Virus record (IMG/VR): IMGVR_UViG_3300020471_001437
Reading direction: 5' to 3' (one strand)
DNA length: 56,340 nucleotides
From: an uncultured virus (IMG/VR IMGVR_UViG_3300020471_001437)
Taxonomy: Duplodnaviria; Heunggongvirae; Uroviricota; Caudoviricetes
Part shown: piece after piece, positions 476-56,219 of the stretch
Layout: each line of letters begins with the position of its first letter
Position numbering within the stretch: position 1 is the stretch's first letter
The notes under the pieces: model-generated
Seen by the model: the letters and a program-made list of their open reading frames with translations, nothing else
Database searches by the model: none
What the model was told of the DNA's origin: nothing
Translations under genes and position numbers: made by a program

Positions 476-1090
476 ATGGAACTACGACCATACTACGATA
501 GACCTACGGCCGTTATCAGCGATTACCTCGCTCGTATCGACCAAAAGGTGAGAGCGAACTACCCTCATTGGGGTTACGAAAACAAAGGCGTTTGGCCGAA
601 AGGCGAATACGGAAAGGGTATTCTACGCGCAGACCAATTCTCATTATTGGGAACTTTTGGTCAGTGGCTTATCCCTTCTTCCGGAGCAAACGGTAACTCA
701 ACAACCATCAGCGTTGACTCATTCGGTTGGGCACAGCGCACACTTGACTTCAAAACTCTTGAAGAATTCTACTACTTGCTAATGGGAATTCAATACCCTG
801 TGACACCTCTTTTGGTGACAGAACACCAATGGAGAATTTCCGGTATCGAGACTCCGGTCATCGACCAGCAAATCTTCGAGGTACTTGAGGAACCATTCGT
901 ATGGTACGAAGAGCCAATCGTAATCGAACCTGAAAAGACCGTTGTCTGTGCACACCGTGTCGTTGGTGGACTTTCCAACTTCGGAAACAGCACCATCGCA
1001 GGTGGAGAGAAATGGCGTGTTATCGGCAGTGTAGTCGGTCAGCACCACGAATTGATTCAACAGAGACAATCCATTGGAGAGTTGTCCTGA
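476..1090 (+). CDS. Candidate major capsid protein (possibly single jelly-roll)
   Basis: First gene of the structural operon, strong RBS (AGGAGA), 204 aa, beta-rich, with an EEPIVIEPEKTV strand pattern reminiscent of jelly-roll capsid proteins. The fold is inferred, not shown. Confidence 0.4.
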   Translation: MELRPYYDRPTAVISDYLARIDQKVRANYPHWGYENKGVWPKGEYGKGILRADQFSLLGTFGQWLIPSSGANGNSTTISVDSFGWAQRTLDFKTLEEFYYLLMGIQYPVTPLLVTEHQWRISGIETPVIDQQIFEVLEEPFVWYEEPIVIEPEKTVVCAHRVVGGLSNFGNSTIAGGEKWRVIGSVVGQHHELIQQRQSIGELS

Positions 1091-15923: not shown

Positions 15924-17483
15924 ATGACCAATCCGAAACGTACGGGTACCATGGCAGAGGTAACCGATGCAACACAGGAAGGCCGAAAGGTCACAGCGCA
16001 AGAAGTAAACATCATAGCGGCAAAGGAAATAGCCGCGTTGGTAAAATCGACGCTTGGACCAATGGGAATGGACAAGATGTTGGTCAAGAACGATGGTGGT
16101 GTTACCGTCACAAATGATGGTGCAACCATTCTTCGTGAAGTAAACATCACTCACCCAACGGCGCGCATGATTATTCAAGTCGCCAAAACACAGGAAGCAG
16201 AGTGCTACGACGGAACCACGTCAGCCGTCATTCTTGCGGGGGAACTGATGAAGCAGACAGAACAGTTGCTTGCTAAAGGAATCCACCCAACAATGATTGT
16301 ACGTGGTTTCAAGCAGGCCGCAAAGAAGGCCATCGCACACCTATCTTCTCTTGGTTTCAAAACGGAAGACAACATGCACAACGTGGCAATCACAGCCATG
16401 ACAGGTAAATCAGCAGAAGACGACGGAGAACACCTTGCAGAACTATGCGTACAAGCCGCAACTCGCTCTAAGCCGGTAGACGTCAATATCACCGTCAGAC
16501 CGGGTGCCCCCGTTGCAGATTCATTCTTCACCAATGGCTGTATCGTGGATAAGTCAAAAATGACACACAACATGCCTGATTTGATAGAAGATGCGCGTGT
16601 TGCTCTATTCGATTGTGAATTGGGTAATCAGCAGATGGGCAACGGAGTCAACATGCAATTTAGCGACTCCGAGTCAGCGAATAAGTTCATGGCAGACCGT
16701 AAGAGTGAACTTGTTACACTCGCCGAGTCCATTGTTTCAGTTGGTGCTACCGTTGTTTTGTGCATGAAGGACATAGACCCTGTCGTAGCCGAACAACTGT
16801 CCCGCATGGGGGTATACGCCGCACGCAGAGTAGCCGCTTCTGATTTAGAGGCAGTAGCAATTGCCACAGGAGGTACAATAGTTAGCAACGTGGAGGAACT
16901 TGAACCAACCGACCTTGGTTCTTGTGGTACCGTTCGTGAAAAGAAGTACGAACTATCTCCGCGTCCACTACTGTTCTTTGATGATGTCCCCAATGATACA
17001 GTTTCAAGTATCATGGTGTTTGCTCCAACAGAACACCTTGCTTACGAAATAGGTAGGGCACTTGACGACGCGGTTGGTGTTGTTTACGTAGCACACACTG
17101 ACAACGACATCATAGCAGGAGGTGGTAGTGCATACATGTCGATGTCACTTGCCGTCAAAGAATTTGCATCTTCCGTCGGTGGAAGGGCGCAATTAGCGGT
17201 TGAGGCATTCGCCACCGCGTTAGAGGTAATACCCTCTACGCTTGCCGAAAACTGTGGTTTGTCCCCCATCGACACCCTTCTCAAATTGCGTGTAGCCCAC
17301 AGTGAAGGCGCACACAACGCATACGTTGATGTCTACACCGGAGAGATTGAAACGTCGAATGCTGTCGTCGAACCCAAGCGGGTGGTTAAGACGGCAGTAC
17401 AATCAGCCACAGACACAGCATGTATGATACTACGTATTGACAACATTGTCACAGCGAAAGAACCCGACGAATTTGGGATGTGA
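15924..17483 (+). CDS. ths: Thermosome (group II chaperonin) subunit
   Basis: STLGPMGMDKML, TNDGATIL, HPTA, YDGTTS (canonical GDGTTS), AGGG, VVEP, ILRID. Alternative start at 15951. Confidence 0.95.
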   Translation: MTNPKRTGTMAEVTDATQEGRKVTAQEVNIIAAKEIAALVKSTLGPMGMDKMLVKNDGGVTVTNDGATILREVNITHPTARMIIQVAKTQEAECYDGTTSAVILAGELMKQTEQLLAKGIHPTMIVRGFKQAAKKAIAHLSSLGFKTEDNMHNVAITAMTGKSAEDDGEHLAELCVQAATRSKPVDVNITVRPGAPVADSFFTNGCIVDKSKMTHNMPDLIEDARVALFDCELGNQQMGNGVNMQFSDSESANKFMADRKSELVTLAESIVSVGATVVLCMKDIDPVVAEQLSRMGVYAARRVAASDLEAVAIATGGTIVSNVEELEPTDLGSCGTVREKKYELSPRPLLFFDDVPNDTVSSIMVFAPTEHLAYEIGRALDDAVGVVYVAHTDNDIIAGGGSAYMSMSLAVKEFASSVGGRAQLAVEAFATALEVIPSTLAENCGLSPIDTLLKLRVAHSEGAHNAYVDVYTGEIETSNAVVEPKRVVKTAVQSATDTACMILRIDNIVTAKEPDEFGM

Positions 17484-19050: not shown

Positions 19051-19764
19051 ATGGCATCCGGTGAAATCCTCGTTGCCCACGGAATGTGGGAGGTTATGAG
19101 ACAATCCCGTGGTTACGTGCCTCATTCAGTTGGCGTTTATGGGGCTTCTCAAACAGGAAAAACGACCCTCGATAGGCAGTTGACTACCCAAGGGGAAATC
19201 AGGCCATATGGTGAAGATGACAGAACCCACCACACGTTTCGCAGGGGTAAGTACATGCTTCCCGAAGCAACACACAAACGGATTCGTAGTAGGGGAATGA
19301 AAAGAACGATTGTATCAAGAGACATAGGGGGACACGTAGAGTACCATAGTACGTGGTTGCGTGACCTTTGGTTGCGCAAAGTCAAAACCATTGTTGTGGT
19401 AATGGACCATAGACACATGGAAGACCCAGCCAATACAGATAACCAAGTCGCGCTTTCGTACCTTGTAACTTCACTTCAAAACCAAACAAGACCCAAAGGA
19501 CTTGGTTTGAGGCGCATATTCCAACGTAGGTACATGCCACAGCGTATCATATTGCTGATGAACAAAGCCGACGAATGGATGAATCAAGAAACGTATTCAC
19601 AATGGGAGCAGGGATTCATACTACGCCACCCAATTTTTGACGCGTTTAGACAAACCTTGTACGAGATACAGGAAATGAAGATACCGCTACGCGCAGACGC
19701 TTGTTCTGCCGCAGTTGGGTGGAATGTAGATGAAGCAATTTTCAGAGGTTTAGCAGATTTGTGA
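19051..19764 (+). CDS. Small Ras-superfamily (Arf/Sar-like) GTPase
   Basis: G1 GASQTGKTT, G3 DIGGH, G4 NKAD and G5 CSA, in correct order and spacing. Confidence 0.85.
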   Translation: MASGEILVAHGMWEVMRQSRGYVPHSVGVYGASQTGKTTLDRQLTTQGEIRPYGEDDRTHHTFRRGKYMLPEATHKRIRSRGMKRTIVSRDIGGHVEYHSTWLRDLWLRKVKTIVVVMDHRHMEDPANTDNQVALSYLVTSLQNQTRPKGLGLRRIFQRRYMPQRIILLMNKADEWMNQETYSQWEQGFILRHPIFDAFRQTLYEIQEMKIPLRADACSAAVGWNVDEAIFRGLADL

Positions 19765-30176: not shown

Positions 30177-30251
30177 GGCCCCGTGGTGTAGTGGATAGCA
30201 TCATGGTTTGCGGAACCATAGACCCGAGTTCGATTCTCGGCGGGGCCGCCA
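30177..30251 (+). tRNA. trnR: tRNA-Arg (anticodon GCG), CCA encoded
   Basis: Acceptor GGCCCCG/CGGGGCC, D arm GTGT/GCAT, anticodon stem ATGGT/ACCAT with loop TTGCGGA, T arm CCGAG-TTCGATT-CTCGG, 3' GCCA. Confidence 0.95.
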
Positions 30252-31046: not shown

Positions 31047-31952
31047 ATGCCCTCAATTAACCTCCCCGGGGACATGAAGAGAGCCTCTCTCGCCGGGATG
31101 GAATGCGTGATTTACTGTCGAACCTCGACAGACAAACAAGAAACAGGTCTCGACACCCAATACTTCGACTGTCGGACTCAAATTAGCAGAATAGGGTTAG
31201 AATTGGCTGTTCCCTCAATGGAGGAAGTCACAGTTGAGGAAGACTACACTTTCCTCGAATACTCCCACATGCAAGGAGGTTGGTTTGACGAGGGACAGTC
31301 CGGAGGGCTCGACCCTTTGGACCGACCCGGCTTCAAAAGCATGATGACATACGTTGAGCAGAATGAAATACCGATAATTGTCATGTACCACAATGACAGG
31401 CTTGCGCGTGACGTAGAATTGACACTTAGAGTGGTAAGGGAATGTAAAGAAAAAGGAATAGAGTTCCTATTTGGCAACCTACCGGACATCAACATAGACA
31501 CCCCTGAAGGGAAGATGCTCTTGACCCAAATGTCATCGGTTGGCGAATATTTCAGAAATGACGGTAAGAGGAAAACTAAGGCTGGGATGGCTCGCCTAAA
31601 GTCCGAAGGAAGGTGGTTGGGAGAGACTCCTTACGGCTACTATGCAATCACAAAACACGAAGACGAAGAGCAATATGGTGAGTTATTGTATGACTTCCAC
31701 GAACTTGACGCGCTTGTCAAACTGTTCCGTCACTTCCTTACCTCGCGCCCACCGTCTTATGCGGGGACTGCGAAGTACATGAATGAGCAAGGCATACCTA
31801 CACGAAGGGGCGGGCAGTGGACTCGAACCCACGTTTACAAGATTCTAACCAAGGCTGTAATCCGTAGAAAGCGAGATGAACTTGGTAGGAAATTCGGGGA
31901 ATACTTCCCCACCGATACAATGGAGGAAAATGTGTATGAAGAAGAAGTATAG
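31047..31952 (+). CDS. Serine recombinase (resolvase + recombinase domains)
   Basis: IYCRTSTDKQ (catalytic Ser), DEGQSGG, RPGF, DRLARD, GRWLGETPYGY. Confidence 0.9.
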   Translation: MPSINLPGDMKRASLAGMECVIYCRTSTDKQETGLDTQYFDCRTQISRIGLELAVPSMEEVTVEEDYTFLEYSHMQGGWFDEGQSGGLDPLDRPGFKSMMTYVEQNEIPIIVMYHNDRLARDVELTLRVVRECKEKGIEFLFGNLPDINIDTPEGKMLLTQMSSVGEYFRNDGKRKTKAGMARLKSEGRWLGETPYGYYAITKHEDEEQYGELLYDFHELDALVKLFRHFLTSRPPSYAGTAKYMNEQGIPTRRGGQWTRTHVYKILTKAVIRRKRDELGRKFGEYFPTDTMEENVYEEEV

Positions 31953-34475: not shown

Positions 34476-37400
34476 ATGGTAACAATCATCAACACAGTGA
34501 AGAAAAAGAATGACGACGTTGGACTGATTTCAGTACGATGGAGAGACGAAGACGGTAACCGTCAGGAAGACATATTCCGTCACTTTCCATACGTGTATGT
34601 CAACCCTGATGATGTGCGTCAGTTACAGTCATCCCGTGAACAAGTGAAAGGAACCGAGAGAAGGGAATACCCTATCGAAAAGAAACAATTCATGCGTCGT
34701 CTCAAGGAATGGAAGCGTAAGAAAGACAGTTACGCCCCTGCAAAGTGGGAACATAACGTCAAGATGGATGGAGTTGTTTCTCACGATGACGATGACGAGC
34801 AATACAACCTTGACGGCACACGCCTTCGCCGTGTAGATTTCCGTCGTGCGTCTGCTCGCAACGCCTTCCGTCGTGCGTATACTCCACTATACGGTTCTCG
34901 GACACAACACCCCGAGCAGTTCTGTATCAGACCGCCGATGGAACAAGACCAATTCGAATCATTGTTCAGTCTTGATGCACCCACACACATCGCATACATT
35001 GACCTTGAAACTCTACAATTTACACCTAATACAGACGACTATCCAAAGTACACTAACACAAACCACCCTCGTCATTCTCTACCTATTGGACCTAACCAAG
35101 CAGGGCTACAAGAAATCTCTATGATTGCCATATACGCCGATTGGCTTGACCAATACATCGTATGGGCACAACACCCTAACTTTGAGGAATACAATACGGG
35201 GGACTTGCCCCGGGAATACAAAGAGCGCGGTGAAGTGCGCTACTTCAATGATGAAAGAGACCTTTTGGTCAACTTCGTAGAATGGGTTGAGACATTTGAC
35301 CCTGATATGTTCGTTGCGTGGAATGGTGATGGTTACGACTATCCTATGTTGCACTACCGTCTTGATGTTACAGGAGTCGGGCCCGAAAGATTGTCCCCTA
35401 TCGTCCATTCATCAAACAACCAATTCACAAGCACTCGCGACTTCATGCCGCCTGCTGACAATTGGTCCGAAGAAGGAGAAAGGATTCTCAAAGGGCACTA
35501 CCGTGCTTCAAGACAACCTATTCGTGGTCGGGCTACCATTGATTTGATGCCTGCCTTTGCCAAATGGTGGCGTTCTACCAAGGGACAAGACATCGGGTTC
35601 CGTGTGAGCCTTAACCGAGCAACGAACGAACTTCTGAAAGACTACATTGATGTTGGTAAAGATGCTGACTTCAAGTGGGGGTTCTTTGACAAAGCATACG
35701 ACAAGTTCATCGAGGACTACATCTACTACAACATTCGTGACGTAGAGGCTATGGTTCAGGTTGAAGGCTACGCCAACGTCATACAACTACACCACGCCAT
35801 GCAGGTGTTCCTCAAAGTTCCATTTGGTTCTACATTCAACGCTACTCGTTTCTGTGGTGTAATGTTCAGTCGTGGTGCTGGTTTTCTGCCGGGAGACCCT
35901 GTGTGGGATAATCAGCCGTTTGCCAAATACATGGGCGTATTGATGGATGATTTGTCCTATGAAGGTGCAGAAGTAGTGGACGTAGAGGCAGAGGGTAACA
36001 TGGGACTACACCATAACACAGCGGCTCTTGATGCAATGGCAATGTACCCATACAACATCATTGGTAAGAACATCTGCTGGTTGACAGCGTACGAAGCAAA
36101 AGAAGGGGACGAACACGCAGTCACTTACGACATTCACAAGGAGAAAGACATCATTGGTTATGAGACAGTCGCTTTCCACCCGTCTACCGTCATGGAAGGT
36201 TCGCTTCCTAAGATGGTGAAAGTGGTTCTTGATGAGCGTGCCCATTACAAAGGCGAGATGAAGAAGGCAAGAGAGGCCGGGGACGACCTCGCTTACAAAC
36301 AGGCCGACAACATGCAGAAAGCCGTCAAGGTGGTTGCTAACTCGTTCTATGGTGTGTTGGGTAACGCGTGGGAATGGGGTCGTGATTCTGTCCCTCACGC
36401 TACTTGGGCACTTGCTGGTGCTACTACCAAATACGGTAAGAAGCAGATTCATACTGTGAGGGAATACTGTGAATCCCAAGGATTCAAGACTGTTTTCGGT
36501 CACACAGATTCAGTTTTCGTCAAGTTGGGTGACGACAAGACTGTCGAGGAATGTGTCGAGCAAGGTCACAAATTGACCGAGGAAATCAGTGAGTTCGTAC
36601 AGACCTCTCTCAACCACTCGGGCGCAGAATGGGAATTCGAGCAGTTCATGGATGAGTTCTTCATTGCTAAGAAGAATCGTTACGCAGGACGTATTGCATG
36701 GGCCGATGGCGAGTTTATCACCGGCAAAGACCTCAAGCAACGTCTCAAGGTATCCGGTTTTGAACTCAAGCGTGCTAACGCTTCCAAAGGTGTTGGTGAC
36801 GTCCAACTTGAGGTATTCGACTTAATGTTCAATCGTGCCTCCATGCAGGACATTGTTACACACTTACACAATCGCTACGAATCAGTAATGAACGGTGAAG
36901 TTCCTATTGAGCAACTTGTTGCGCGAAAGACAATGCGCAAGCACTTGCCGTGTGCTTACCGTCGTGTTGGGTACGGTCAGTGGGCATCCTGTAATTGTGG
37001 TTCTTGTCCTGTCATGAAAACACCGGGAATGACCAAAGAAGAGAAAGATGGGCTTGATAAGCGTAGAAGTGACGACCTTTGCTACTCTATCCGTGGGCCA
37101 AAGTCTTCCAACTACCGACGTTACATACACGGCGAACAGGTTTGGAGAACTATGGACCCTGACTTTGGTGCCGCCGCGTGGTACAACGCATACATGGCAA
37201 ACGACACTGAATCTTCAATTTCCAAAGGAGAATCATTTTACTTGGTTGCTTGTAGAGACGGGCCATATCCTATGCCATACCGAGAGCACAAGACTCTACG
37301 TCGTAATTATGGTCTTGTTGGGCTCAAAAGGGTTGAACAACTGTCAAGATTCACCCCTGACTACGAATATTACGCACATGAGACTGTTGTGCAATCTGTG

Positions 37401-37484
37401 AAGAACGTATTCGAAGGAATGGGCTGGTCACTTGAACTAATCAGTGGTGGAAAGGTCCCGACAATTACGGATTTCCTTTACTGA
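34476..37484 (+). CDS. polB: Family B DNA polymerase with 3'-5' exonuclease
   Basis: ExoI DLET, ExoII WNGDGYD, ExoIII YNIRD, YEGA, motif A DAMAMYP, motif B KVVANSFYG, motif C GHTDS, KNRYAG. Confidence 0.95.
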   Translation: MVTIINTVKKKNDDVGLISVRWRDEDGNRQEDIFRHFPYVYVNPDDVRQLQSSREQVKGTERREYPIEKKQFMRRLKEWKRKKDSYAPAKWEHNVKMDGVVSHDDDDEQYNLDGTRLRRVDFRRASARNAFRRAYTPLYGSRTQHPEQFCIRPPMEQDQFESLFSLDAPTHIAYIDLETLQFTPNTDDYPKYTNTNHPRHSLPIGPNQAGLQEISMIAIYADWLDQYIVWAQHPNFEEYNTGDLPREYKERGEVRYFNDERDLLVNFVEWVETFDPDMFVAWNGDGYDYPMLHYRLDVTGVGPERLSPIVHSSNNQFTSTRDFMPPADNWSEEGERILKGHYRASRQPIRGRATIDLMPAFAKWWRSTKGQDIGFRVSLNRATNELLKDYIDVGKDADFKWGFFDKAYDKFIEDYIYYNIRDVEAMVQVEGYANVIQLHHAMQVFLKVPFGSTFNATRFCGVMFSRGAGFLPGDPVWDNQPFAKYMGVLMDDLSYEGAEVVDVEAEGNMGLHHNTAALDAMAMYPYNIIGKNICWLTAYEAKEGDEHAVTYDIHKEKDIIGYETVAFHPSTVMEGSLPKMVKVVLDERAHYKGEMKKAREAGDDLAYKQADNMQKAVKVVANSFYGVLGNAWEWGRDSVPHATWALAGATTKYGKKQIHTVREYCESQGFKTVFGHTDSVFVKLGDDKTVEECVEQGHKLTEEISEFVQTSLNHSGAEWEFEQFMDEFFIAKKNRYAGRIAWADGEFITGKDLKQRLKVSGFELKRANASKGVGDVQLEVFDLMFNRASMQDIVTHLHNRYESVMNGEVPIEQLVARKTMRKHLPCAYRRVGYGQWASCNCGSCPVMKTPGMTKEEKDGLDKRRSDDLCYSIRGPKSSNYRRYIHGEQVWRTMDPDFGAAAWYNAYMANDTESSISKGESFYLVACRDGPYPMPYREHKTLRRNYGLVGLKRVEQLSRFTPDYEYYAHETVVQSVKNVFEGMGWSLELISGGKVPTITDFLY

Positions 37485-37671: not shown

Positions 37672-40600
37672 TCAAGAGTAACGTCGCATAGTCTCTCCGA
37701 CAAGCGGGACTCTACCCGCAATCGTTGAACCTGTAACCGAACGCATGTTAGAATTGTTACCCATGGTAACTCCTGCTCGAAGATGTCGCTTCATATCTTC
37801 CATAGCCATAGCATCAAACGTGTTCTTTGCTTTAGGACCCATTCCTTGGCCGGGCCCTACTCCTACTACTTTACCGGTGATGCCCATAGCGTCCACAATG
37901 GTACGAACATAACGATAGTCGTAATCACCTATACCAACCCCATCACCGTTCATTTGGAAGTTCAGTTGCTCTTCTACACACCCAAGTGCGGCCTCTAAGC
38001 CGAGGAATTGCTCTACTGTATGTGGATTGTCACACCAAATAGTATCAGTTTGAACAAAGTCAGGTAGCAATGTAGTCAATGCTTCCCAAACCTTCGGGTG
38101 TGCGGAGTCAATAAGTAGAGTGTATGCGTCTCCGTCCTTTGTAACGTAGGTTGGTCCTCCTTGTTGTATACCTGATACTTGTATGAGGGAAATGAAGTCG
38201 CGCATGTTCATCATATCTCGCTGGTCTCCATCTACGCGTATTACAAATGAATCTCCATCCTGTATTTCAGCAATCATTTCTCCTTTAGGGGCGTTAGCGG
38301 CCTTTAATCCGCGTCTTACCTGTCTCATCATGAAACCGGCGTCGATTTCTTTTTCCCTAAACCTCCTCATGTTTACATTGAATATGCACAGTCTTGCTTC
38401 AGGGTCGTAATCAACTACCTCAAGTATTTCTTGTATGGTAACGGGTGAAGCCCAATTTGCGATAGATTGTGCGTCTTCATCGTTCCAATATTCGGGTTGA
38501 AGAACAACACTTGTGAAAATTTGTTTGCCTTTGGCATTCTGTTTGTTTACTGCTTCAACCACTTCTTCAAGACGGTCTACTGAAGCACCCTGTCCCTTAC
38601 CACCCGAGTGGAACGTTCTAAGCGAAGCCTGTGTAGCCGGTTCCGCCAAACAACCTGCGGCAGTAGAACCAATTGCTTCTCCTACTTCAACGAGGTTTTG
38701 GGTTGCCCACCAATCAAGACGGGACACCATGTCTCTTACTACCGGCTTCATTACCTCTCTTTTCGCGAGAACGTCAACTACGGCATTCGTTAGGCGTTCA
38801 TTATCCCATTTGCTATTGAATCCATCTACAAAGAAGTCGATGTGTGCACTGCCCTTCATACACTCATCACAGTCCATGCCAAGGGGAACGTCGTGTTTAC
38901 ATTTGAAATCAAAGAAGAATGGCTGTAACTCAATAGTGAAATCTTCGTTGTCGCCTTCTACTAACCCTTGCGGGTTCAATACTTGACCGTCAGGGAAGCG
39001 GTGTACCATCTTAGAAGAGTAACCACGGAAGCCGTCTCCGCCCGCTTTGAATGAAACAATGGTACCGTCTCTCAAGTCGATGGTACGTCCGTGCGAATCT
39101 ACTACGAGCGATTCAAGACCACGACGGACCTTGTTTGCAAGATAACCGGAATCTTGTAACGCACCGGACGAGGATTCCATGTCTGACCGTCTTCCGGCAA
39201 TACAGATTGTGAAGTATTCGTGTGGTTCCATTCCTGATTTGTATGAGTTCTTGACATACCCGTGATGTATTGGGTGTTCTATTTCATATCCACGCAGAGG
39301 GTAGTGTGCGAACTGTCTTTGGATTCCGTTCATGGTAGATTCAAGACCCCTTGTTGGGACTACTCCTGAAATCCGTACCTGACCATACGCCGCGCCCATC
39401 TGTTGAATGTTCAACTTCTTACCTCTACCACCTGACCTAACTGCTATTTCCATTGCGTTATCTGAACCCGATATGTCTGATACGGCCTGCGTAACAGACT
39501 CTTCCCACGGGGATTGCACTTGGTCAAGCAATTGACCTCTAAATTGATACGGGGCATTGTCAAGAATCTGTTGTTTGATTACTTGTTGCGTGTCGGGTAG
39601 CCAATTTTCATCATCTACATATTTCTGCATGTTTCTATCTGCAAAGTCTCTATTGATTTGAGCACATATAGCAGAGGACTCTTCATACCCGCTACGCACC
39701 TCTTCATACTGTTCAGAGGAAAGACCGCAATCAGCAACACCCATAGAGTAACCAAGTGCATGGTGAGCGGCGAAACCAAGTCTACAAAGCATATCAAGGA
39801 ACTTGTGCATCTCCTTTGAGCCCTCTTCGTAGCCGAAACGATAGTAGAATGCAGGTGCAAGTGTACCTTTTTCCTTACCCATGAATGTTCTATCAAGTGT
39901 ACCCGTGATTACCTCACCGTCGAGAATAATTGTTTCGTCTTTGACCTCTTTTCCTTTTTCATTCAACACCATTGTACCGTCAGGGTTGTACAGTATACCT
40001 GACTTGAATCTTGCATTGATGCCTTTGGGTAACAGTAGGCTGATACAGCGATAACCCGAATAGAACTTGCCCTTTACATCAGGTTCGCCATAGTCTAAAA
40101 TATACTCATACTCTCCCTCACCACTGTCGTGGAATACGTGGCTGAATATGCTGTTCATCATCCTTCTACTGAAATAAGGAACGCCGTCTTCGTCAAACCC
40201 AAGTCCAACTGACGGATTGTACGTACCGGCTTTGCTCTTATGCTTCATTGTGAGCAAGTAAACTCCTGATGTTTGGTCGTGGTCGGTACCAATCACCAAC
40301 TTACCCATCCTATGATGTATCACATTGTCTTTCAACTGCAATTGGTCTCTGATTTCATTCATTGCTTCTATTGAACCCGGAACATAGATGTTCATTTGGT
40401 CTCCGTCATAATCAGCATTGAATGGGACACATATTGCTGGATTCATTGAGATGGAATGCTGGTCTAATGGAACCACTCGTAATCCATTCAAAGATTGTCT
40501 GTGCAAAGACGGTTGTCTGCCGAATAGAACGTAATCTCCGGGCAAAACTGACCTCGCGACAATGTCACCTACACGGAGAGGCCGTAAGCCGTCTTCTGCG

Positions 40601-42612
40601 TACATTTCACGGCGATAGTTCATTGAATGGTCCCAAGCAAACTTCTCTCTCTCCCGAGCAACCATTATTTCCCAATCTTTCACTACGTCCTTAGTAGGGT
40701 CTTCGCTTGGTGCTGGTTTAGGTGGAAGTGTTTCTTTGTGCTCCAACCAAGCCAAACCACCTGCTGTCCAACCCTCTTGGGTGTACTTACCATCCACCCC
40801 TTTGGCCTCCCTGCTATTCCACAAAGGCCTATCCTTCAGGTTTTGATTATATTCTTGAAGTCCAAAAGGCTCAATCCAATGAGCACCGGGGTATCTTTCG
40901 TCAACTACCTTACCGTTCTTTGCAGGCGGTTTTTCGGGGAAGCCCCTAATCACAAGTTCTCTTAGTCTTTCGATGTTTTCTTCGGTTACCTTTTCACGCA
41001 CAAACGTGTTAAGACACGATACTTTGGGCACACCTACTTCATTGATGGAAAGACCACCGTTAGCAGAAATAACTGAACGAATAACGTTGTTGACTACCTT
41101 TGAGTTTATTCTACGACGGAAGGCCGTCTTTTTGCTACCATATCCTGAAAGATTGTCAAGGATACCTGCTTTGATAGTTTTCTTCTGTGTACCTGCTCTT
41201 GTGCGTACCATCTTTGGTTCGAACATGCCAATTTTTTGATTTTGATTGAAGAAGCAGTGAGCAACCGCAGTGAATAGGTCTGCCACCCTTCGCGTCTGAA
41301 TCATACCGGGGTCTTGACCTCCTAACTTGGCTTCTCTCAAAAAGTGATTTATGCGTAACACATTGGCGTACATTACAGTAAGGTCGTTTTCCATCGGTTT
41401 ACCTGTTTGGAAATCTTCTTGCATTGGGCGAATGTTATTGGGTGCCACAGGTAGATTCTGAATCATCATGTATTCGGGTCTCATTTCAGGCGCGTCGAAT
41501 CCCATCAGTCGGGCATCGGTATCAGATATGGATTGTAGTAGCATATACACTGTCGAATAAGGGTAAAAACGGTCACCGCCAAGACCTTTTCTCGCAGGTT
41601 CAAGAAGGAACATCTTGTTATTCAAATTCCATTCGACAAGTGGTGACTTTTCTTTACAGAGGGGACAATCCATGTAAGGACCTTGGATTACACCTTGCTT
41701 TCTGATAGTTTGTTTAGTCAAGCGTCGAATACGAGCAAGTCCGTTAGGGTTTTTGTCTACTTTGTGAATTCTTTCGGCCCTCTGAAGTAAGTCATTGTAT
41801 GTGTCTTTATCCTCGATTGGTATCTTTCCACAACCATGACAAAACATATTCAATACATCTGTAAAGTCATTGGGTTGTGTGGATATTGCAAACAGTACGT
41901 GTGGAACCGGTTCTTCCAACTCAATGTGGCCAAAATGGCCCGGGCATGTTTGGTGTGGCTTACCGATAAGACTTCCTTCGCAGGTCAAACACTTCGATTG
42001 TCGCTCGCTTGCACCAAGATGACCATCTGCGGGGCCACCCGCTACGGGAGAAGGTTGCTTTGTCTGCGTCAAAATATTGTAATTCGTAACCTTTAGCACA
42101 GACATCTCTTCGATTTCTTCAGGCGACATCATTCTAATACCGACCTTTCGAATCACTTTAGAATCGGTAGTTACGGTACGTGGAGTCATAACCACCTTTG
42201 CTTGAAACTTCAGTGGGGTCTTGATGTATGCGCCTGACATACCGAGACTGTCAAACTCATCGGGATAATCTTCTGATAAATCAAACACTTCGGGAGTAGC
42301 AAAGAACCCTTTCGGTGGCTCGGGAATGACGCCTTCTTCGTCGGGGGTATCATCAAACTCACCCAATTGAACCTTGACAAGATGGTACATTACTTTCTTT
42401 GAGCGAAGCCCTTCAGCATCAGGGTGAGTATAGAAATACGCGAGAGCAGATTGCTCCCGTTGAGGGACAAACCTTCGAGAAGAACCTTTGATGTCGAGGT
42501 CAACTACCTGTATTGTTGTACCGTCTTCTGTCTCTATTTCGTAGATTTCATCTTTGGTAAAGTACCAATAGAACTGTGTGACGGCAATCGGTCCTTGCTC
42601 TTCTTCAAGCAT
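37672..42612 (-). CDS. rpo1: DNA-directed RNA polymerase largest subunit (Rpo1; A' and A'' in one chain)
   Basis: CPGHFGHIEL, RSVIS, RQPSLHRQS, catalytic NADYDGD (40399-40419), bridge helix DSGYL, trigger loop EPATQASLRTFHSGG. Confidence 0.95.
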   Translation of the reverse strand: MLEEEQGPIAVTQFYWYFTKDEIYEIETEDGTTIQVVDLDIKGSSRRFVPQREQSALAYFYTHPDAEGLRSKKVMYHLVKVQLGEFDDTPDEEGVIPEPPKGFFATPEVFDLSEDYPDEFDSLGMSGAYIKTPLKFQAKVVMTPRTVTTDSKVIRKVGIRMMSPEEIEEMSVLKVTNYNILTQTKQPSPVAGGPADGHLGASERQSKCLTCEGSLIGKPHQTCPGHFGHIELEEPVPHVLFAISTQPNDFTDVLNMFCHGCGKIPIEDKDTYNDLLQRAERIHKVDKNPNGLARIRRLTKQTIRKQGVIQGPYMDCPLCKEKSPLVEWNLNNKMFLLEPARKGLGGDRFYPYSTVYMLLQSISDTDARLMGFDAPEMRPEYMMIQNLPVAPNNIRPMQEDFQTGKPMENDLTVMYANVLRINHFLREAKLGGQDPGMIQTRRVADLFTAVAHCFFNQNQKIGMFEPKMVRTRAGTQKKTIKAGILDNLSGYGSKKTAFRRRINSKVVNNVIRSVISANGGLSINEVGVPKVSCLNTFVREKVTEENIERLRELVIRGFPEKPPAKNGKVVDERYPGAHWIEPFGLQEYNQNLKDRPLWNSREAKGVDGKYTQEGWTAGGLAWLEHKETLPPKPAPSEDPTKDVVKDWEIMVAREREKFAWDHSMNYRREMYAEDGLRPLRVGDIVARSVLPGDYVLFGRQPSLHRQSLNGLRVVPLDQHSISMNPAICVPFNADYDGDQMNIYVPGSIEAMNEIRDQLQLKDNVIHHRMGKLVIGTDHDQTSGVYLLTMKHKSKAGTYNPSVGLGFDEDGVPYFSRRMMNSIFSHVFHDSGEGEYEYILDYGEPDVKGKFYSGYRCISLLLPKGINARFKSGILYNPDGTMVLNEKGKEVKDETIILDGEVITGTLDRTFMGKEKGTLAPAFYYRFGYEEGSKEMHKFLDMLCRLGFAAHHALGYSMGVADCGLSSEQYEEVRSGYEESSAICAQINRDFADRNMQKYVDDENWLPDTQQVIKQQILDNAPYQFRGQLLDQVQSPWEESVTQAVSDISGSDNAMEIAVRSGGRGKKLNIQQMGAAYGQVRISGVVPTRGLESTMNGIQRQFAHYPLRGYEIEHPIHHGYVKNSYKSGMEPHEYFTICIAGRRSDMESSSGALQDSGYLANKVRRGLESLVVDSHGRTIDLRDGTIVSFKAGGDGFRGYSSKMVHRFPDGQVLNPQGLVEGDNEDFTIELQPFFFDFKCKHDVPLGMDCDECMKGSAHIDFFVDGFNSKWDNERLTNAVVDVLAKREVMKPVVRDMVSRLDWWATQNLVEVGEAIGSTAAGCLAEPATQASLRTFHSGGKGQGASVDRLEEVVEAVNKQNAKGKQIFTSVVLQPEYWNDEDAQSIANWASPVTIQEILEVVDYDPEARLCIFNVNMRRFREKEIDAGFMMRQVRRGLKAANAPKGEMIAEIQDGDSFVIRVDGDQRDMMNMRDFISLIQVSGIQQGGPTYVTKDGDAYTLLIDSAHPKVWEALTTLLPDFVQTDTIWCDNPHTVEQFLGLEAALGCVEEQLNFQMNGDGVGIGDYDYRYVRTIVDAMGITGKVVGVGPGQGMGPKAKNTFDAMAMEDMKRHLRAGVTMGNNSNMRSVTGSTIAGRVPLVGETMRRYS

Positions 42613-43195
42613 GTCTACACCGAACCCTCATTACCAATCGGCGGGTTATCCGGTGATGCTCTGTACCTTCCTTCGCAAACCTTGGTCTTTCCACGTCCGC
42701 AAACAAAAGGCTTGAGAGGTCCGTCACCTGTCCCGCCGGGACACTATCGTGACCCCTCCTGCTGACATTGCGTCGGGTTATCGCCTTGTTTCCGCTTGCT
42801 TTGTCATAGAGGGCCTCATCTACCGCTGTCCATGTAATCAGCATAGGTACTGCCGAATAGACCTGCGGGGCCATTGTGAATCTGATGTTGTAGTTGTTGG
42901 ATTGAAGAATAGAATCAAAGTAACCATCTCCTACGTCTGATGTTACCTCTATTTCCCAAACACCGCCTTTCTCACCATTATTCTTGATTGTGAAGATGTC
43001 CGCTATTGGTATGTTGATTCCGGTTCGGATGTTTGTCTTGATATTGTTCCCGAAATTGAACAGTGCGAAAGGTTTGCCTCCGCGTTGGAGTTTTACGTTT
43101 GTACCGTATTCTCCTAATTTGGACCAAGGTGCGTCACCCGGCACTACACTCCGAGCGTCGGATAGTCTTGCCTTGTTCAGATAGTCCATCGTCAC
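42605..43195 (-). CDS. Hypothetical protein in the RNAP operon
   Basis: 196-aa ORF overlapping the Rpo1 start. Confidence 0.6.
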   Translation of the reverse strand: MTMDYLNKARLSDARSVVPGDAPWSKLGEYGTNVKLQRGGKPFALFNFGNNIKTNIRTGINIPIADIFTIKNNGEKGGVWEIEVTSDVGDGYFDSILQSNNYNIRFTMAPQVYSAVPMLITWTAVDEALYDKASGNKAITRRNVSRRGHDSVPAGQVTDLSSLLFADVERPRFAKEGTEHHRITRRLVMRVRCRHA

Positions 43196-43206
43196 ACCCC
43201 AAGCGT

Positions 43207-43650
43207 TCAGTCATCATAAGGGTAACCTGTGGAACAGGTATACGCAAGAAGGTCAGCAAAATCATTCAGCGGGTCAGACGAACGAGGAACCCACTCATAG
43301 GTTGGTTCAGCAGGAAGTGTCAAGTCTTCTACTCTCTCAACCAAGTGTACGAGGTTTTCTGAAGAAATCTCATATTCCCCATTAAGTCCTCGCGCTACCA
43401 CTTCGTTATCACTGTACACTCTTATCCCTTGTACTTCGCCCTCAATGCGCTTACTAACTTCTTCCAAGCATCTCAATACAGAATACATTTCTGCGTAGTT
43501 GCTGGTTTGTACTCCAATGTACTCTCCGCCACAGAACAGGATGTTGTTACCATCAGTTACAACAAAACCTATACCGCATTCTCCACGACCCTTTCCTTTT
43601 CTTTTGATAGTGGAACCGTCTGTCCAGCATTCAAGGATGTAATCACTCAT
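43207..43650 (-). CDS. rnhA: Ribonuclease HI
   Basis: WTDGS, GIG, TSNYAE, YSDNEVV, WVPR, NDFADLLA (all four acidic catalytic residues). Confidence 0.9.
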   Translation of the reverse strand: MSDYILECWTDGSTIKRKGKGRGECGIGFVVTDGNNILFCGGEYIGVQTSNYAEMYSVLRCLEEVSKRIEGEVQGIRVYSDNEVVARGLNGEYEISSENLVHLVERVEDLTLPAEPTYEWVPRSSDPLNDFADLLAYTCSTGYPYDD

Positions 43651-43897
43651 ATGAAATGACCCTCCACGTCCGTTCGGTACCCAAGGTAAGATTTCTTCTT
43701 TCAATCTGTACGATGTCGCCAACCTCCATTCCTTTACCTTCTGCACGCATACGTACAAGAACAGGGTCAGAGAAGAGAATGCGCGGCATCTTTTCGATGT
43801 CGTTTACGTTGTTGTTACGCATCATTAGTTTGGCTTGCGCCTTGGTTAGAACGGTGTGTTTTGGAACTTTGGGGTGCGCAAGCGGGTCTGCCATCAT
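43643..43897 (-). CDS. rpo5: RNA polymerase subunit Rpo5 (RpoH / Rpb5 C-terminal domain)
   Basis: HPKVPKHTVL...MPRILFSDP...GDIVQIER...WRVI. Confidence 0.9.
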   Translation of the reverse strand: MMADPLAHPKVPKHTVLTKAQAKLMMRNNNVNDIEKMPRILFSDPVLVRMRAEGKGMEVGDIVQIERRNLTLGTERTWRVISYE

Positions 43898-43907
43898 ACA
43901 AGGGGAG

Positions 43908-44153
43908 TTAGTGGTTGGACATATCCCTTTCCCGTTCAAAGCGTTTGACAGCAATGAACCCCATCAGCACTGAAACGAGTCCAATATAGGCGAGTAGTGG
44001 TGTCAAACCGTCTAACCACACGCCTAAAACGAACGTCAAAGACCCAAGAAAGCACAATAGCGTGTCAAACCACGCCATCAAAGAGTTTTTTTCTCTCTCA
44101 TCGGGTGGTTCGAAGGTGGGTATTTTTGAAAATGGGTCGTTTACATGTCCCAT
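43908..44153 (-). CDS. Small membrane protein (2 TM)
   Basis: Two hydrophobic helices. Confidence 0.5.
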   Translation of the reverse strand: MGHVNDPFSKIPTFEPPDEREKNSLMAWFDTLLCFLGSLTFVLGVWLDGLTPLLAYIGLVSVLMGFIAVKRFERERDMSNH

Positions 44154-44683
44154 TCGTCATCATCGTCCTCGTCGTCCTCTTCACTTTTCTTAGAAGATGG
44201 CTTTTTGGACTTCTTGATTCCCCACTCGTCTTCGTCGTCATCATCGTCGTCGTCGCCGTCATCATCGTCGTCGTCACTTGCCTCTTCTTCATCTGACTCG
44301 TCATCGAATTGGTCCCAATCTACATCATCTTCATCTTCCCAATCGTCGTCTTCGTCGTCTTCGGGCTCTTCGTCGAGGGTGTCCCAATCTGCATCTTCCC
44401 ATTCAGGGTCCCATTCGTCCTCTTCTTCTTCAGGTTCGGGTTTCTTTGAAGCGGTCTTCTTCGACTTTGTCTTCTTCGCTGAAGAACCTGCGTTGTCTGC
44501 AAGGTCTACGTTAAGCAACTTGATAGATTCGTTCTTCTTCAAAGCAAGGCTCGGTTCGAGCCAGCCCGATAATTTGTTCTTCGCTGATTCAAGGTTCTTG
44601 CCCGAAATCGAAATGCTGATGTTGAAATCAAACTCCTTCATGTACCTGCGCAGGTGAGATAAGGAGATAAGTGAATCGGTCAT
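44141..44683 (-). CDS. Highly acidic, Trp-punctuated protein
   Basis: Long D/E tracts with periodic W and two K/S-rich patches. Confidence 0.65.
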   Translation of the reverse strand: MTDSLISLSHLRRYMKEFDFNISISISGKNLESAKNKLSGWLEPSLALKKNESIKLLNVDLADNAGSSAKKTKSKKTASKKPEPEEEEDEWDPEWEDADWDTLDEEPEDDEDDDWEDEDDVDWDQFDDESDEEEASDDDDDDGDDDDDDDEDEWGIKKSKKPSSKKSEEDDEDDDDEWDM

Positions 44684-45345: not shown

Positions 45346-45810
45346 CGCTCCAACGTCGCTGAGAAGCAAAGACGTGCAGGGACAAGGACCCTGCCCTTCA
45401 CAGACCAATGCGGGTTCGTTAGAGCCCGCAGTCCTCTTGAGGCTTAACTTTCGAGTTTATTCAATGCCTCTTGAGGAATCGCAAAAGTCCTACCCCTCCA
45501 AGGGTAGGCGAAAAAAAAATCTCCTAAACGTAATGGAGATTACTGTAACGAGGTGGTAGAATGGGCGACAGCCCGGGGGCCGGCCGGTGGAAACACCGCA
45601 CGGAACGCCACAATTAGCAATACATACTTGAAAAACAGGACTGCGACTACGAACCACATTTAATTGTGGCATCCCGTAAGGGATGGAGAAGAATGTGCTT
45701 GTGTTCACGCAAAGGTGTCGTCCCGGGTCATGCCGGCGATACTGACACAAGAGGAAACTCGCGGGAGTTACGGTAATCGTTGAGATTACGCGTGGATTAG
45801 CATCCACATA
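45340..45810 (+). ncRNA. Putative structured non-coding RNA
   Basis: No convincing ORF; consecutive hairpins (GCAGGG..CCCTGC, GCGGGTTC..GAGCCCGC, CCTACCC..GGGTAGG, AATCTCC..GGAGATT) directly after promoter 1. Confidence 0.45.
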
Positions 45811-46269
45811 GGCCCAATGGGTCACAGATAGGGTAAAATCCTCTTAATAGGAGGTGTAGACGTCCCTTCGGCTCGAAACACTCATGCAATTGGGTTGCCG
45901 TAAACTATGACCGTCGCCATGACTTTCAAAGGATTGTCGGAGCGGCGGAGGGGAAGATTGCACTTGCCCCACAGATATAGCGCAAACAGACTATTTACTC
46001 CGGAGGTGATTCTGTCACCACCCCAGCGAATAGGCGCGTTGACTATCCCATATGAGGTTCCGATACTTGTATGGAGCGGACGTAAGTCCAACCAAAATCG
46101 GATAGAACCACAGCAGAAACAGAGGACCTCTTCTGCACTAATTCGGTGAGAATATGGTGGTTTGATAACGTCCTCGGTGTACACAAATCTACGATTTTTG
46201 CCGGTGAAACGGTAGAATGAATAGAGGCGTGTCAGGTAGGGTTTGGGACCATTGTAATGATGGTATGAA

Positions 46270-46305
46270 GAAATTACTGATATACGGCCGTATATTGGTG
46301 ATTTC
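46270..46305 (+). terminator. Long hairpin ending the first unit
   Basis: GAAATTACTGATATAC-GGCC-GTATATTGGTGATTTC; all three non-Watson-Crick pairs are G-U on the + strand. Confidence 0.5.
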
Positions 46306-46375: not shown

Positions 46376-46660
46376 AATAACCCAAAGAGGCCCCCCTAAG
46401 AGACACAAAACTTCTTCACAGATTGGCACCCATGATTGGGTTTTGTTGATAGTCAAGAGGGATTACGATTGAACACTTGTGTTCATGAATAGTCCAGCCG
46501 AGATGATTGAGCACTTGTGTTCTTTCATCAAAGCAACTCTTGAAAGGAGAAATTCATGATTGGGTGTCATCACAAATCAAACACAGATTTGATAGATAAC
46601 AACTAAGCCGATGGTCACTTCATACATGTATGACGTGACTGTCGGCTTTACTTTTTTTGT
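46370..46660 (+). ncRNA. Putative ~290-nt structured RNA with terminator-like end
   Basis: GGCACCCA/TGGGTGTC and TCAAGAG/CTCTTGA enclose two copies of GATTGA(A/G)CACTTGTGTTC; long G-U-containing hairpin at 46605-46648 followed by a T run. Confidence 0.55.
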
Positions 46661-48465: not shown

Positions 48466-48571
48466 TGTTGGGTGGAGACAATGTGTCACCGAGTGCTTGG
48501 GTGACAGCCACAGTTGGAGTTGAAAGACGAAGATTGTGATAAACGAGCACATTCGGACCTATGGTCCACAG

Positions 48572-48787
48572 ATGTTGTCTGAAGATGATGTTACACAGCA
48601 TGTATGCTTTCATCGCCCAATCAAGGGCGAGGCATACACAATATGCGGACACACATACACGGGAAGGCATGTACCATTTGCTAACCGAGTAAAGTGCCCG
48701 ACATGTGGCAAGACGGGAACCATTCAATTGGTTAAACCCAACTATGTGATGGAGAAGTATACGAAATTGTATTCATCTCTGTCTTGA
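48572..48787 (+). CDS. Small Zn-ribbon protein
   Basis: ICGH...CPTCG; ATG after hairpin-ACAG. Confidence 0.55.
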   Translation: MLSEDDVTQHVCFHRPIKGEAYTICGHTYTGRHVPFANRVKCPTCGKTGTIQLVKPNYVMEKYTKLYSSLS

Positions 48788-56117: not shown

Positions 56118-56219
56118 GTGTATACGGTGCACCCAGCAGGATTCCTACAATGGATGAATGACAAAGCACCAACGATTACTACTAACGTAAACTACCCTCA
56201 TTGGGGATATGAGAACAAG
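56118..56219 (+). other. Mosaic of short fragments homologous to this virus's structural genes
   Basis: 56190-56219 matches 557-586 at 26/30 nt (NYPHWGYENK); 56118-56171 encodes VYTVHPAGFLQWMNDKAP versus VYLRHPAGVPKWVLDEAP in gene 2018-3007. Confidence 0.75.

What the first reader, a model, noticed from the sequence alone, without database searches (positions are those of the whole stretch)
37672..43897. Archaeal virus encoding a fused Rpo1 and Rpo5 but no visible Rpo2
Seen: a 1646-aa largest RNAP subunit with Zn-clamp motifs, NADYDGD (Y in place of the canonical F), bridge helix and trigger loop in one chain. It has a ~150-aa N-terminal extension, and Rpo5 is in the same operon. I recognise no second-largest subunit anywhere in the 56 kb. 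Established: euryarchaeal hosts split this subunit into A' and A'', Rpo5 binds Rpo1, two-barrel RNAPs need both large subunits, and characterised archaeal viruses generally use host RNAP. Inference: the virus either swaps its own Rpo1/Rpo5 into the host enzyme to make a hybrid polymerase with altered promoter use, or has Rpo2 outside the window. Either would be unusual.
Basis: partly seen in the sequence, partly recalled or inferred. Interest (0 to 1): 0.87.

Follow-up and report, generated by a model that had tools for sequence, protein, structure and literature searches.

The report
Archaeal virus with half a polymerase
A family of large marine viruses of archaea carries only part of an RNA polymerase, including its catalytic subunit, and probably completes it with subunits borrowed from the host, a way of hijacking transcription not described before.

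Summary
Confirmed. The window encodes an intact 1646-aa Rpo1 (A' and A'' in one chain) in an overlapping operon with Rpo5. A collinear 140-kb relative with terminal repeats has no Rpo2: a profile that scores giant-virus Rpb2 at 391-455 bits finds nothing. Rpo5 lies upstream in 59 of 59 informative loci; dN/dS is about 0.06. NADYDGD is not special (some hosts have it; 18 of 81 viral copies have F). The element matches 'magrovirus group D', whose 'RNA polymerase A' gene Philosof 2017 listed without knowing what the element was; this scan found the same cassette earlier on other DNA. Added here: a predicted single-jelly-roll capsid protein (best match SPV1) and a packaging-like ATPase point to a tailless virus; the N-terminal extension weakly resembles an ADP-ribosyltransferase fold; and a 128-kb sister lineage encodes only Rpo1C plus a TFB-like protein. 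That piece cannot work alone, which supports subunit swapping into the host (probably Poseidoniales) enzyme. Binding to host Rpo2 is inferred, not shown; the gene's origin is unresolved.

The parts
37672..42612 (-). Fused largest RNA polymerase subunit (Rpo1N+Rpo1C equivalent), 1646 aa
   Evidence: Pfam Rpb1_1-5, TIGR02390 + TIGR02389 in one chain, PDB Rpo1N best; dN/dS about 0.05-0.07 in 4 of 5 pairs, fifth saturated
42163..42612 (-). N-terminal extra domain (aa 1-150), weakly ADP-ribosyltransferase-like fold, probably without ART catalytic residues
   Evidence: AF2 pLDDT about 90 over aa 10-150; VIA best Z 4.3, rmsd 4.6, 91 aligned; 49 of 50 listed rows are ART-fold entries by my recall of those folds; motif in 54 of 57 full-length copies
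40573..40977 (-). Dock region (aa 546-680) with a lineage-specific insertion; the dock binds the TFB/TFIIB zinc ribbon (recalled)
   Evidence: Span 181 aa here against 90-101 aa in 21 measured Thermoplasmatota outside the host order; long in 29 of 63 distinct viral copies only
40399..40419 (-). Catalytic loop NADYDGD (aa 732-738)
   Evidence: N, A, D, D, G, D invariant in alignment A4 of 46 sequences; Y/F varies
38800..39024 (-). Linker across the A'/A'' junction (aa 1197-1271) with a C-x-H-x(6-9)-C-x2-C putative zinc site
   Evidence: C1238, H1240, C1248, C1251 invariant in A1; pattern in 47 of 57 full-length copies
38608..38643 (-). Trigger loop EPATQASLRTFH (aa 1324-1335)
   Evidence: EPATQ/EPVTQ in 50 of 57 and RxFH in 57 of 57 full-length copies
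42605..43195 (-). Unknown 196-aa ORF between RNase H and Rpo1; not universal in the family
   Evidence: No Pfam, PHROGs or NCBIfam hit; family in 27 of 81 loci, another family in 12, none in others; not folded
43207..43650 (-). RNase HI, sitting where cellular archaea have rpo2 in the rpo5-rpo2-rpo1 operon
   Evidence: Pfam RNase_H, PHROG 531; in 58 of 59 loci with enough upstream DNA; host order rpo5-rpo2-rpo1N-rpo1C
43643..43897 (-). Rpo5 (about 84 aa, archaeal size, no eukaryotic N-terminal domain)
   Evidence: Pfam Rpb5_C E 5.5e-13, NF007129; in 59 of 59 informative loci within 1.5 kb of Rpo1
44141..44683 (-). Acidic ORF at the head of the operon (with a small membrane ORF 43908-44153)
   Evidence: Sequence; similar acidic ORFs upstream of Rpo5 in many loci
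34476..37484 (+). Family B DNA polymerase, convergent with Rpo1
   Evidence: Pfam DNA_pol_B; same arrangement in 56 of 81 loci
31047..31952 (+). Serine recombinase/resolvase
   Evidence: Pfam Resolvase + Recombinase
15924..17483 (+). Thermosome subunit, closest to the presumed host order
476..1090 (+). Predicted single-jelly-roll capsid protein (204 aa)
   Evidence: 86-98% identical among close relatives; model pLDDT 58; VIA best SPV1 capsid chain 6oj0_T Z 8.5, rmsd 3.7, 134 aligned, next row 6.1

Best explanation
A tailless, ~130-145 kb dsDNA virus of marine archaea (probably Poseidoniales) makes its own catalytic largest subunit and the Rpo5 that binds it, and assembles them with the host's Rpo2, Rpo3/10/11/12 and the other small subunits into a hybrid RNA polymerase. 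The viral chain replaces both host Rpo1N and Rpo1C and so controls the clamp, dock, active site, bridge helix, trigger loop and jaw, the parts that meet TFB, TFE, Spt5 and TFS (recalled). The likely gain is to divert Rpo2 subcomplexes from host transcription and to read viral (probably late) promoters. Shown: gene content, intact catalytic motifs, purifying selection, absence of Rpo2. Inferred: assembly with host Rpo2, activity, promoter switch, role of the ART-like domain.
For: No Rpo2 in the closed relative G001: PF00562 0 of 1 while 14 of 14 controls ring; none in 89 + 111 G001 ORFs scanned by Pfam; a 36-sequence archaeal Rpo2 profile scores giant-virus Rpb2 at 455 and 391 bits but finds nothing at E<=1 in six frames of G001 + window or of G377-G379, whereas the matching host Rpo1N profile finds viral Rpo1 at 372-420 bits. 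4 of 4 held relatives found by another gene carry Rpo1, 0 of 4 Rpo2. Rpo5 within 1.5 kb upstream in 59 of 59 informative loci. Catalytic Asp, Zn ligands and trigger-loop residues kept; dN/dS about 0.05-0.07. The 128-kb relative G459:C65 encodes an intact 895-aa Rpo1C-only protein behind RNase H and a TFB-like ORF, with no Rpo1N, Rpo2 or Rpo5 found; intact homologs exist (P0291, P0292). The active site needs both large subunits (PMC5569661, passage).
Against: No binding or activity was shown. Viral Rpo1 is only 26-31% identical to host-phylum Rpo1N, and only 90 of 271 positions invariant in 11 hosts are kept in at least 80% of 35 viral rows, which is a lot of change for a chain that must fit an unchanged Rpo2. 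G001's terminal repeat is 55 nt inside a GC-rich repeat array, and G459:C65 has only an imperfect ~78-nt end repeat. No virus-specific late promoter motif was established. Host assignment rests on binning and on the thermosome.
Confidence: 0.65

Rival explanations
1. Decoy or shut-off: viral Rpo1 (or Rpo1C) binds host Rpo2 subcomplexes but mainly poisons or modifies the host enzyme, for example through the ART-like domain, rather than transcribing viral genes.
For: ART-like N-terminal fold, weak; T4 Alt/ModA modify host RNAP (recalled); bridge helix carries a family-wide one-residue insertion and many changes.
Against: All catalytic residues and the trigger loop are kept under strong purifying selection over 1646 aa, costly for a mere decoy; the ART-like domain has W at the first-strand catalytic position and no conserved catalytic Glu in alignment A2 (ART motif positions recalled).
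Confidence: 0.13
2. The virus has a complete own polymerase whose second subunit is unrecognisable in sequence (as with split jumbo-phage subunits, recalled), hidden among large unknown ORFs of the 100-138 kb region.
For: G001 has several unknown ORFs of 800-1440 aa with no Pfam hit.
Against: Rpo1 is found at about 400 bits while Rpo2 gives nothing; no GDK..GQKG..GEME set in any ORF; these ORFs are poorly conserved (25-38% over parts); no Rpo3/10/11/12 by Pfam. They were not folded.
Confidence: 0.1
3. The assemblies are incomplete or the virus is multipartite or helper-dependent, and Rpo2 sits on DNA not seen.
For: Short terminal repeat in a repeat array; only one held genome is rated complete.
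Against: Independent contigs of 132-144 kb give the same size; G377, G378 and G379 run across G001's junction without Rpo2; 0 of 93 loci (1.36 Mb) hold Rpo2.
Confidence: 0.07
4. The element is not a virus but a plasmid-like element or a piece of an unknown cell.
For: [quoted passage not shown]
Against: Jelly-roll protein whose best match is an archaeal virus capsid, with HCIV-1, HHIV-2 and P23-77 capsid chains also listed; HerA-like ATPase, retropepsin and very large ORFs next to it; fibre-like ORF; no ribosomal or other cellular core genes among the ORFs scanned. A plasmid would still need host Rpo2.
Confidence: 0.05

Closest known systems
'Magrovirus group D' (Philosof et al. 2017, PMC5434244; Xu et al. 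2023, PMC10160649; passages read)
   Same: [quoted passage not shown]
   Different: Those passages give no closed genome, no capsid, and say nothing on Rpo5, fusion, the missing Rpo2, the N-terminal domain or a hybrid enzyme; the element's nature was left open. Supplements were not read and may list more genes.
Archaeal cellular RNA polymerase (Rpo1N/Rpo1C/Rpo2/Rpo5)
   Same: Closest solved structures; archaeal-size Rpo5; rpo5 before rpo1.
   Different: Rpo1 fused while all 41 Thermoplasmatota operons fetched gave a separate Rpo1N; rpo2 replaced by RNase H; extra N-terminal domain and zinc linker; about 30% identity.
Multisubunit RNA polymerases of Nucleocytoviricota and of jumbo phages
   Same: Virus-borne two-barrel largest subunit; Rpb5 in giant viruses (recalled).
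   Different: Those carry both large subunits (recalled; Rpb2 seen next to Rpb1 in L086 and L319). The viral clade here does not nest in the giant-virus rows.
Plant Pol IV/V (recalled, not tested)
   Same: Works like them in that a specialised largest subunit and fifth subunit are combined with shared small subunits.
   Different: Cellular paralogs with their own second subunit; here the second subunit would come from another organism.
Single-jelly-roll viruses (Portogloboviridae SPV1, Halopanivirales HCIV-1, P23-77)
   Same: Predicted single-jelly-roll capsid protein and HerA/FtsK-like ATPase.
   Different: Genome about 140 kb, with PolB, MCM, primases and RNA polymerase parts; the known members are far smaller and lack these (recalled).

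Membership tests
Largest subunit of two-barrel multisubunit RNA polymerases | NADxDGD with three Asp in a double-psi barrel, clamp zinc sites, bridge helix, trigger loop | tested here: met
Largest subunit of two-barrel multisubunit RNA polymerases | Catalytic activity with a second-largest subunit | not testable with these tools
   Needs reconstitution
Complete viral multisubunit RNA polymerase (giant-virus or jumbo-phage type) | Second-largest subunit encoded in the same genome | tested here: not met
   sequence profiles only, large unknown ORFs not folded
Magrovirus group D | PolB, thermosome, resolvase and RNA polymerase A, all archaeal-like | tested here: met
   All four in the window; definition from PMC5434244 passage
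Magrovirus group D | Placement in the group D branch of the PolB tree | not tested
   The published group D sequences were not fetched
Caudoviricetes (true magroviruses) | HK97 capsid, portal, terminase | tested here: not met
   No such Pfam family in 200 G001 ORFs nor PHROG capsid/portal/terminase hit of note in 61 window ORFs; only fibre- and baseplate-like weak hits
Single-jelly-roll viruses (Portogloboviridae/Halopanivirales-like) | Single-jelly-roll major capsid protein | tested here: inconclusive
   Best match SPV1 capsid Z 8.5, rmsd 3.7, 134 aligned, from a pLDDT 58 model; Foldseek E 5.7e-3
Single-jelly-roll viruses (Portogloboviridae/Halopanivirales-like) | FtsK/HerA-type packaging ATPase near the capsid genes | tested here: inconclusive
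   G001 L010:18060-18788 hits AAA_22 and DUF87/HerA below cut-off for the latter; lies about 3 kb from the capsid candidate across the junction
ADP-ribosyltransferase superfamily | ART fold | tested here: inconclusive
   Best Z 4.3, rmsd 4.6, 91 aligned; 49 of 50 listed rows ART-fold by recall; Foldseek, Pfam and Atlas blank
ADP-ribosyltransferase superfamily | H/R in strand 1 and a catalytic Glu | tested here: not met
   Invariant W16 and no conserved Glu in 30 aligned N-termini; positions assigned by eye from recalled motifs

The most novel reading that the evidence does not exclude
A large family of single-jelly-roll viruses of marine Poseidoniales takes over transcription by subunit replacement: one lineage swaps in a fused catalytic Rpo1 with an ART-like domain plus Rpo5, a sister lineage swaps in only Rpo1C (trigger loop and jaw) plus its own TFB, each building an active virus-host hybrid RNA polymerase with changed promoter choice.
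Probability: 0.55. Interest if true: 0.93.

Novelty: categorically new. Interest (0 to 1): 0.85.

Why it matters
Archaeal viruses are stated not to encode RNA polymerases, searches for the NADFDGD motif having failed (PMC5569661, passages). Known viral strategies are a complete own enzyme or factors that bind the host's. Replacing the host's catalytic subunit is a third route, and archaeal polymerases can be rebuilt from single subunits in vitro (same paper), so it is directly testable. The capsid candidate would also settle what 'magrovirus group D' is, and the deep, fast-evolving Rpo1 clade bears on RNA polymerase trees. The presence of the Rpo1 gene itself is not new (PMC5434244).

Tried and rejected
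Shared dock insertion as a link to the host order: seemed promising but only 29 of 63 distinct viral copies have a long insert and it does not resemble the Cys-rich host one; rejected. N-terminal extension as a remnant of Rpo2: no Rpo2-profile match. The best Rpo2-profile row, an 83-aa zinc-ribbon ORF at 48536-48787 (E 0.015-0.08), vanished with the archaea-only profile; treated as chance. The control was in its own training set and was redone. Origin of Rpo1: FastTree puts the clade beside the bacterial outgroup; LG+C20 PMSF without bacteria puts it between archaea and eukaryotes/giant viruses on a stem of 1.66 (40 of 91 rows kept). AU tests on fixed grafts disagree: sister to host order p 0.095 (LG+F+G4) and 0.042 (PMSF); Thermoplasmatota root 0.010 and 0.156; Pol II + giant viruses 0.039 and 0.062. 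Unresolved. Rpo1C tree (203 columns) did not join the fused and C-only viral clades; two outgroup rows were misaligned. No complex prediction of viral Rpo1 with host Rpo2 was obtained, so no verdict. No RNA holder listed; one 155-nt contig identical to the Rpo1 gene in one RNA library is too little to show expression. Foldseek, ESM Atlas and Rfam gave nothing clear. No clear late-promoter motif. Paper searches found no report of a hybrid viral-archaeal polymerase and also missed PMC5434244, so they are not exhaustive.

Full report
What is there. The minus-strand ORF 37672-42612 is a 1646-aa largest RNA polymerase subunit: all five Pfam Rpb1 domains match (four over cut-off), the archaeal A' and A'' models hit one chain, and the best solved relatives are archaeal Rpo1N. 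Upstream lie a 196-aa unknown ORF, RNase HI and an 84-aa Rpo5, with two 8-nt stop/start overlaps. The rest of the window holds PolB, a resolvase, a thermosome subunit, a fibre-like ORF and one tRNA, and no cellular core gene was seen among 61 ORFs scanned. Catalytic Asp, both clamp zinc sites, RxPxLH and the trigger loop are kept across the family; the bridge helix has a one-residue insertion in the viral consensus. The Y in NADYDGD is ordinary: 62 of 81 viral copies have Y, 18 F, and 3 of 41 cellular Rpo1N have Y.

Is Rpo2 elsewhere? No genome is held for the window, but IMG/VR has a relative, G001, of 140,336 bp, classed as having terminal repeats and 100% complete, with which the window is collinear over about 1-59 kb. 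PF00562 found 0 matches there while 14 of 14 controls rang. Pfam scans of 89 larger and 111 further G001 ORFs found Rpb5_C but no Rpb2 family and no other RNA polymerase subunit, TBP or TFB. A profile of 36 archaeal Rpo2 scored two giant-virus Rpb2 at 455 and 391 bits yet found nothing at E<=1 in six frames of G001 plus the window, or of G377-G379; the matching Rpo1N profile found the viral Rpo1 at 372-420 bits. An unfiltered search of 30,331 segments from 93 loci (1.36 Mb) gave a best E of 0.08. The terminal repeat is only 55 nt in a repeat array, but three relatives run across that junction without Rpo2, and independent contigs reach 132-144 kb. Large unknown ORFs were not folded, so absence rests on sequence profiles.

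A family trait. A metagenome scan found 176 relatives among 268 pattern matches; the best 80 were kept, at 29-100% identity. Of 81 loci, 59 had enough upstream DNA: Rpo5 was in 59 of 59, RNase H in 58 of 59. Four of four held contigs found through the ATPase gene carry Rpo1, none Rpo2 (five handles given, four held). dN/dS is about 0.05-0.07 in four of five pairs, the fifth saturated. In the cellular operon the order is rpo5-rpo2-rpo1N-rpo1C; the virus keeps rpo5 before rpo1 with RNase H in the place of rpo2.

Host and kind of element. One viral-type Rpo1 contig is binned in an archaeal MAG, G002, whose order holds over 400 genomes, those listed being 1.1-2.3 Mb; I infer Poseidoniales, which no tool named. 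The viral thermosome's best hits put all 7 genomes of that order above the other 54 of the phylum sample, the top hit being itself a viral contig. Two of 401 genomes of the order hold the conserved 204-aa ORF. That ORF (476-1090) folds, at modest confidence, into a jelly roll whose best match is the SPV1 capsid protein (Z 8.5, rmsd 3.7, 134 aligned; next 6.1), with HCIV-1, HHIV-2 and P23-77 capsid chains lower in the list. G001 also has a HerA-like ATPase, retropepsin, MCM and primases, and no terminase, portal or HK97 family. A tailless virus is the simplest reading.

The extension. Residues 1-150 form a well-predicted domain kept in 54 of 57 full-length copies and under purifying selection. 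No single match is strong (best Z 4.3, rmsd 4.6), but 49 of the 50 listed rows are ADP-ribosyltransferase-fold entries by my recall. The usual catalytic residues seem absent, so a binding module is more likely than an enzyme. This is a lead, not a result.

The sister lineage. G459:C65 (128,049 bp, imperfect ~78-nt end repeat) shares the capsid candidate, ATPase, thermosome and RNase H with G001, but behind RNase H it encodes an 895-aa protein that matches only the Rpo1C part. No Rpo1N, Rpo2 or Rpo5 was found; a TFB-like ORF is present (Pfam TFIIB E 2.6e-4, under cut-off). Intact homologs of 858 and 824 aa exist, one on a 128,869-bp contig. Rpo1C holds the trigger loop but no active-site Asp, so it can act only inside a host-derived enzyme. 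Whether it shares an origin with the fused form is open, and the contig may be incomplete: no PolB or MCM was seen in it.

How it most likely works. The active site lies between the two large subunits (PMC5569661, passage). With no Rpo2 or assembly-platform subunits of its own, the viral Rpo1 can transcribe only with the host's. I therefore favour subunit replacement (0.65): viral Rpo1 and Rpo5 join host Rpo2 subcomplexes, and the remodelled clamp, dock and extra domain change which factors and promoters are served. Against it, only 90 of 271 host-invariant positions are kept in most viral copies, and no complex prediction was obtained. Rivals are a decoy or modifying role (0.13), a hidden own Rpo2 (0.10), unseen DNA (0.07) and a non-viral element (0.05). 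The gene's origin is unresolved: the viral copies form one clade on a very long stem, outside the giant-virus rows, and AU tests differ by model.

What is known. Earlier notes of this scan report the same cassette on other DNA and pointed to 'magrovirus group D'. Philosof et al. 2017 (passages) list PolB, thermosome, resolvase and RNA polymerase A for group D, with no closed genome or capsid block and its nature undetermined; Xu et al. 2023 (passages) again found no structural genes. Their supplements were not read. A review states that archaeal viruses do not encode RNA polymerases (PMC5569661, passages); PMC11706807 and PMC13257274 (passages) add nothing on this. Seven searches found no account of a missing Rpo2 or hybrid enzyme, though they also missed the 2017 paper. 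So the gene is on record; the incomplete enzyme, the capsid candidate, the ART-like domain and the Rpo1C-only lineage were not found in print. Verdict: real, conserved, probably a new mode of transcription takeover; interest 0.85.

Noticed in passing
window 45390-45820; L004:16540-16980: About 430 nt of non-coding DNA roughly 90-95% identical between the window and G001 while neighbouring proteins are about 60% identical; no Rfam family. Candidate non-coding RNA or origin.
   Followed up: partly
window 45293, 46320, 51603: Three copies of a ~50-nt element with a CACATATGTG palindrome and TATAATGA, also in G001; promoter-like.
   Followed up: partly
G001 47-91 kb (L004-L007); window 45810, 49146, 49773, 50030, 52004: A repeated leader ending GGTTCACAGATG at the start codon of many small early-region ORFs, 20 matches all on one strand in G001, often preceded by CATAGAACCGAACCA that could pair with it; a related CCCAATGGGTCACAGA in the window. 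Cassette-like.
   Followed up: partly
window 56190-56218: A second copy of a 29-nt stretch of the capsid-candidate gene (557-585) near the window's end.
   Followed up: no
L010:6658-17608 and L009:3522-18200 (G001 108-138 kb): Very large ORFs with a recurring short Asn-Pro motif and mixed enzyme domains (NUDIX, HAD, Ham1, guanylate kinase, ligase-like), next to a zincin and an ATPase; perhaps protease-processed virion polyproteins.
   Followed up: no
L396:11575-12783: TFB-like ORF in the Rpo1C-only relative; no clear homolog in G001 or the window.
   Followed up: partly
L177:5519-14561: In the presumed host order, Rpo5 and Rpo1C share a homologous ~50-aa N-terminal extension, and Rpo1N has a Cys-rich ~135-aa dock insertion, seen in all 20 other order genomes and G002 but in none of 19 other class genomes with a match.
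   Followed up: partly
window 19051-19764: Small GTPase-like ORF conserved in all relatives including G459:C65, within a block of membrane-protein genes.
   Followed up: no
window 30177-30251 and 31047-31952: tRNA-Arg next to a serine recombinase; could mark an integration module.
   Followed up: no
L006:6290-6667: SWIB/MDM2-domain ORF in G001.
   Followed up: no
window 46114-46290 and 46421-46658: Contigs from marine RNA libraries match this non-coding stretch almost exactly; a weak hint only.
   Followed up: no
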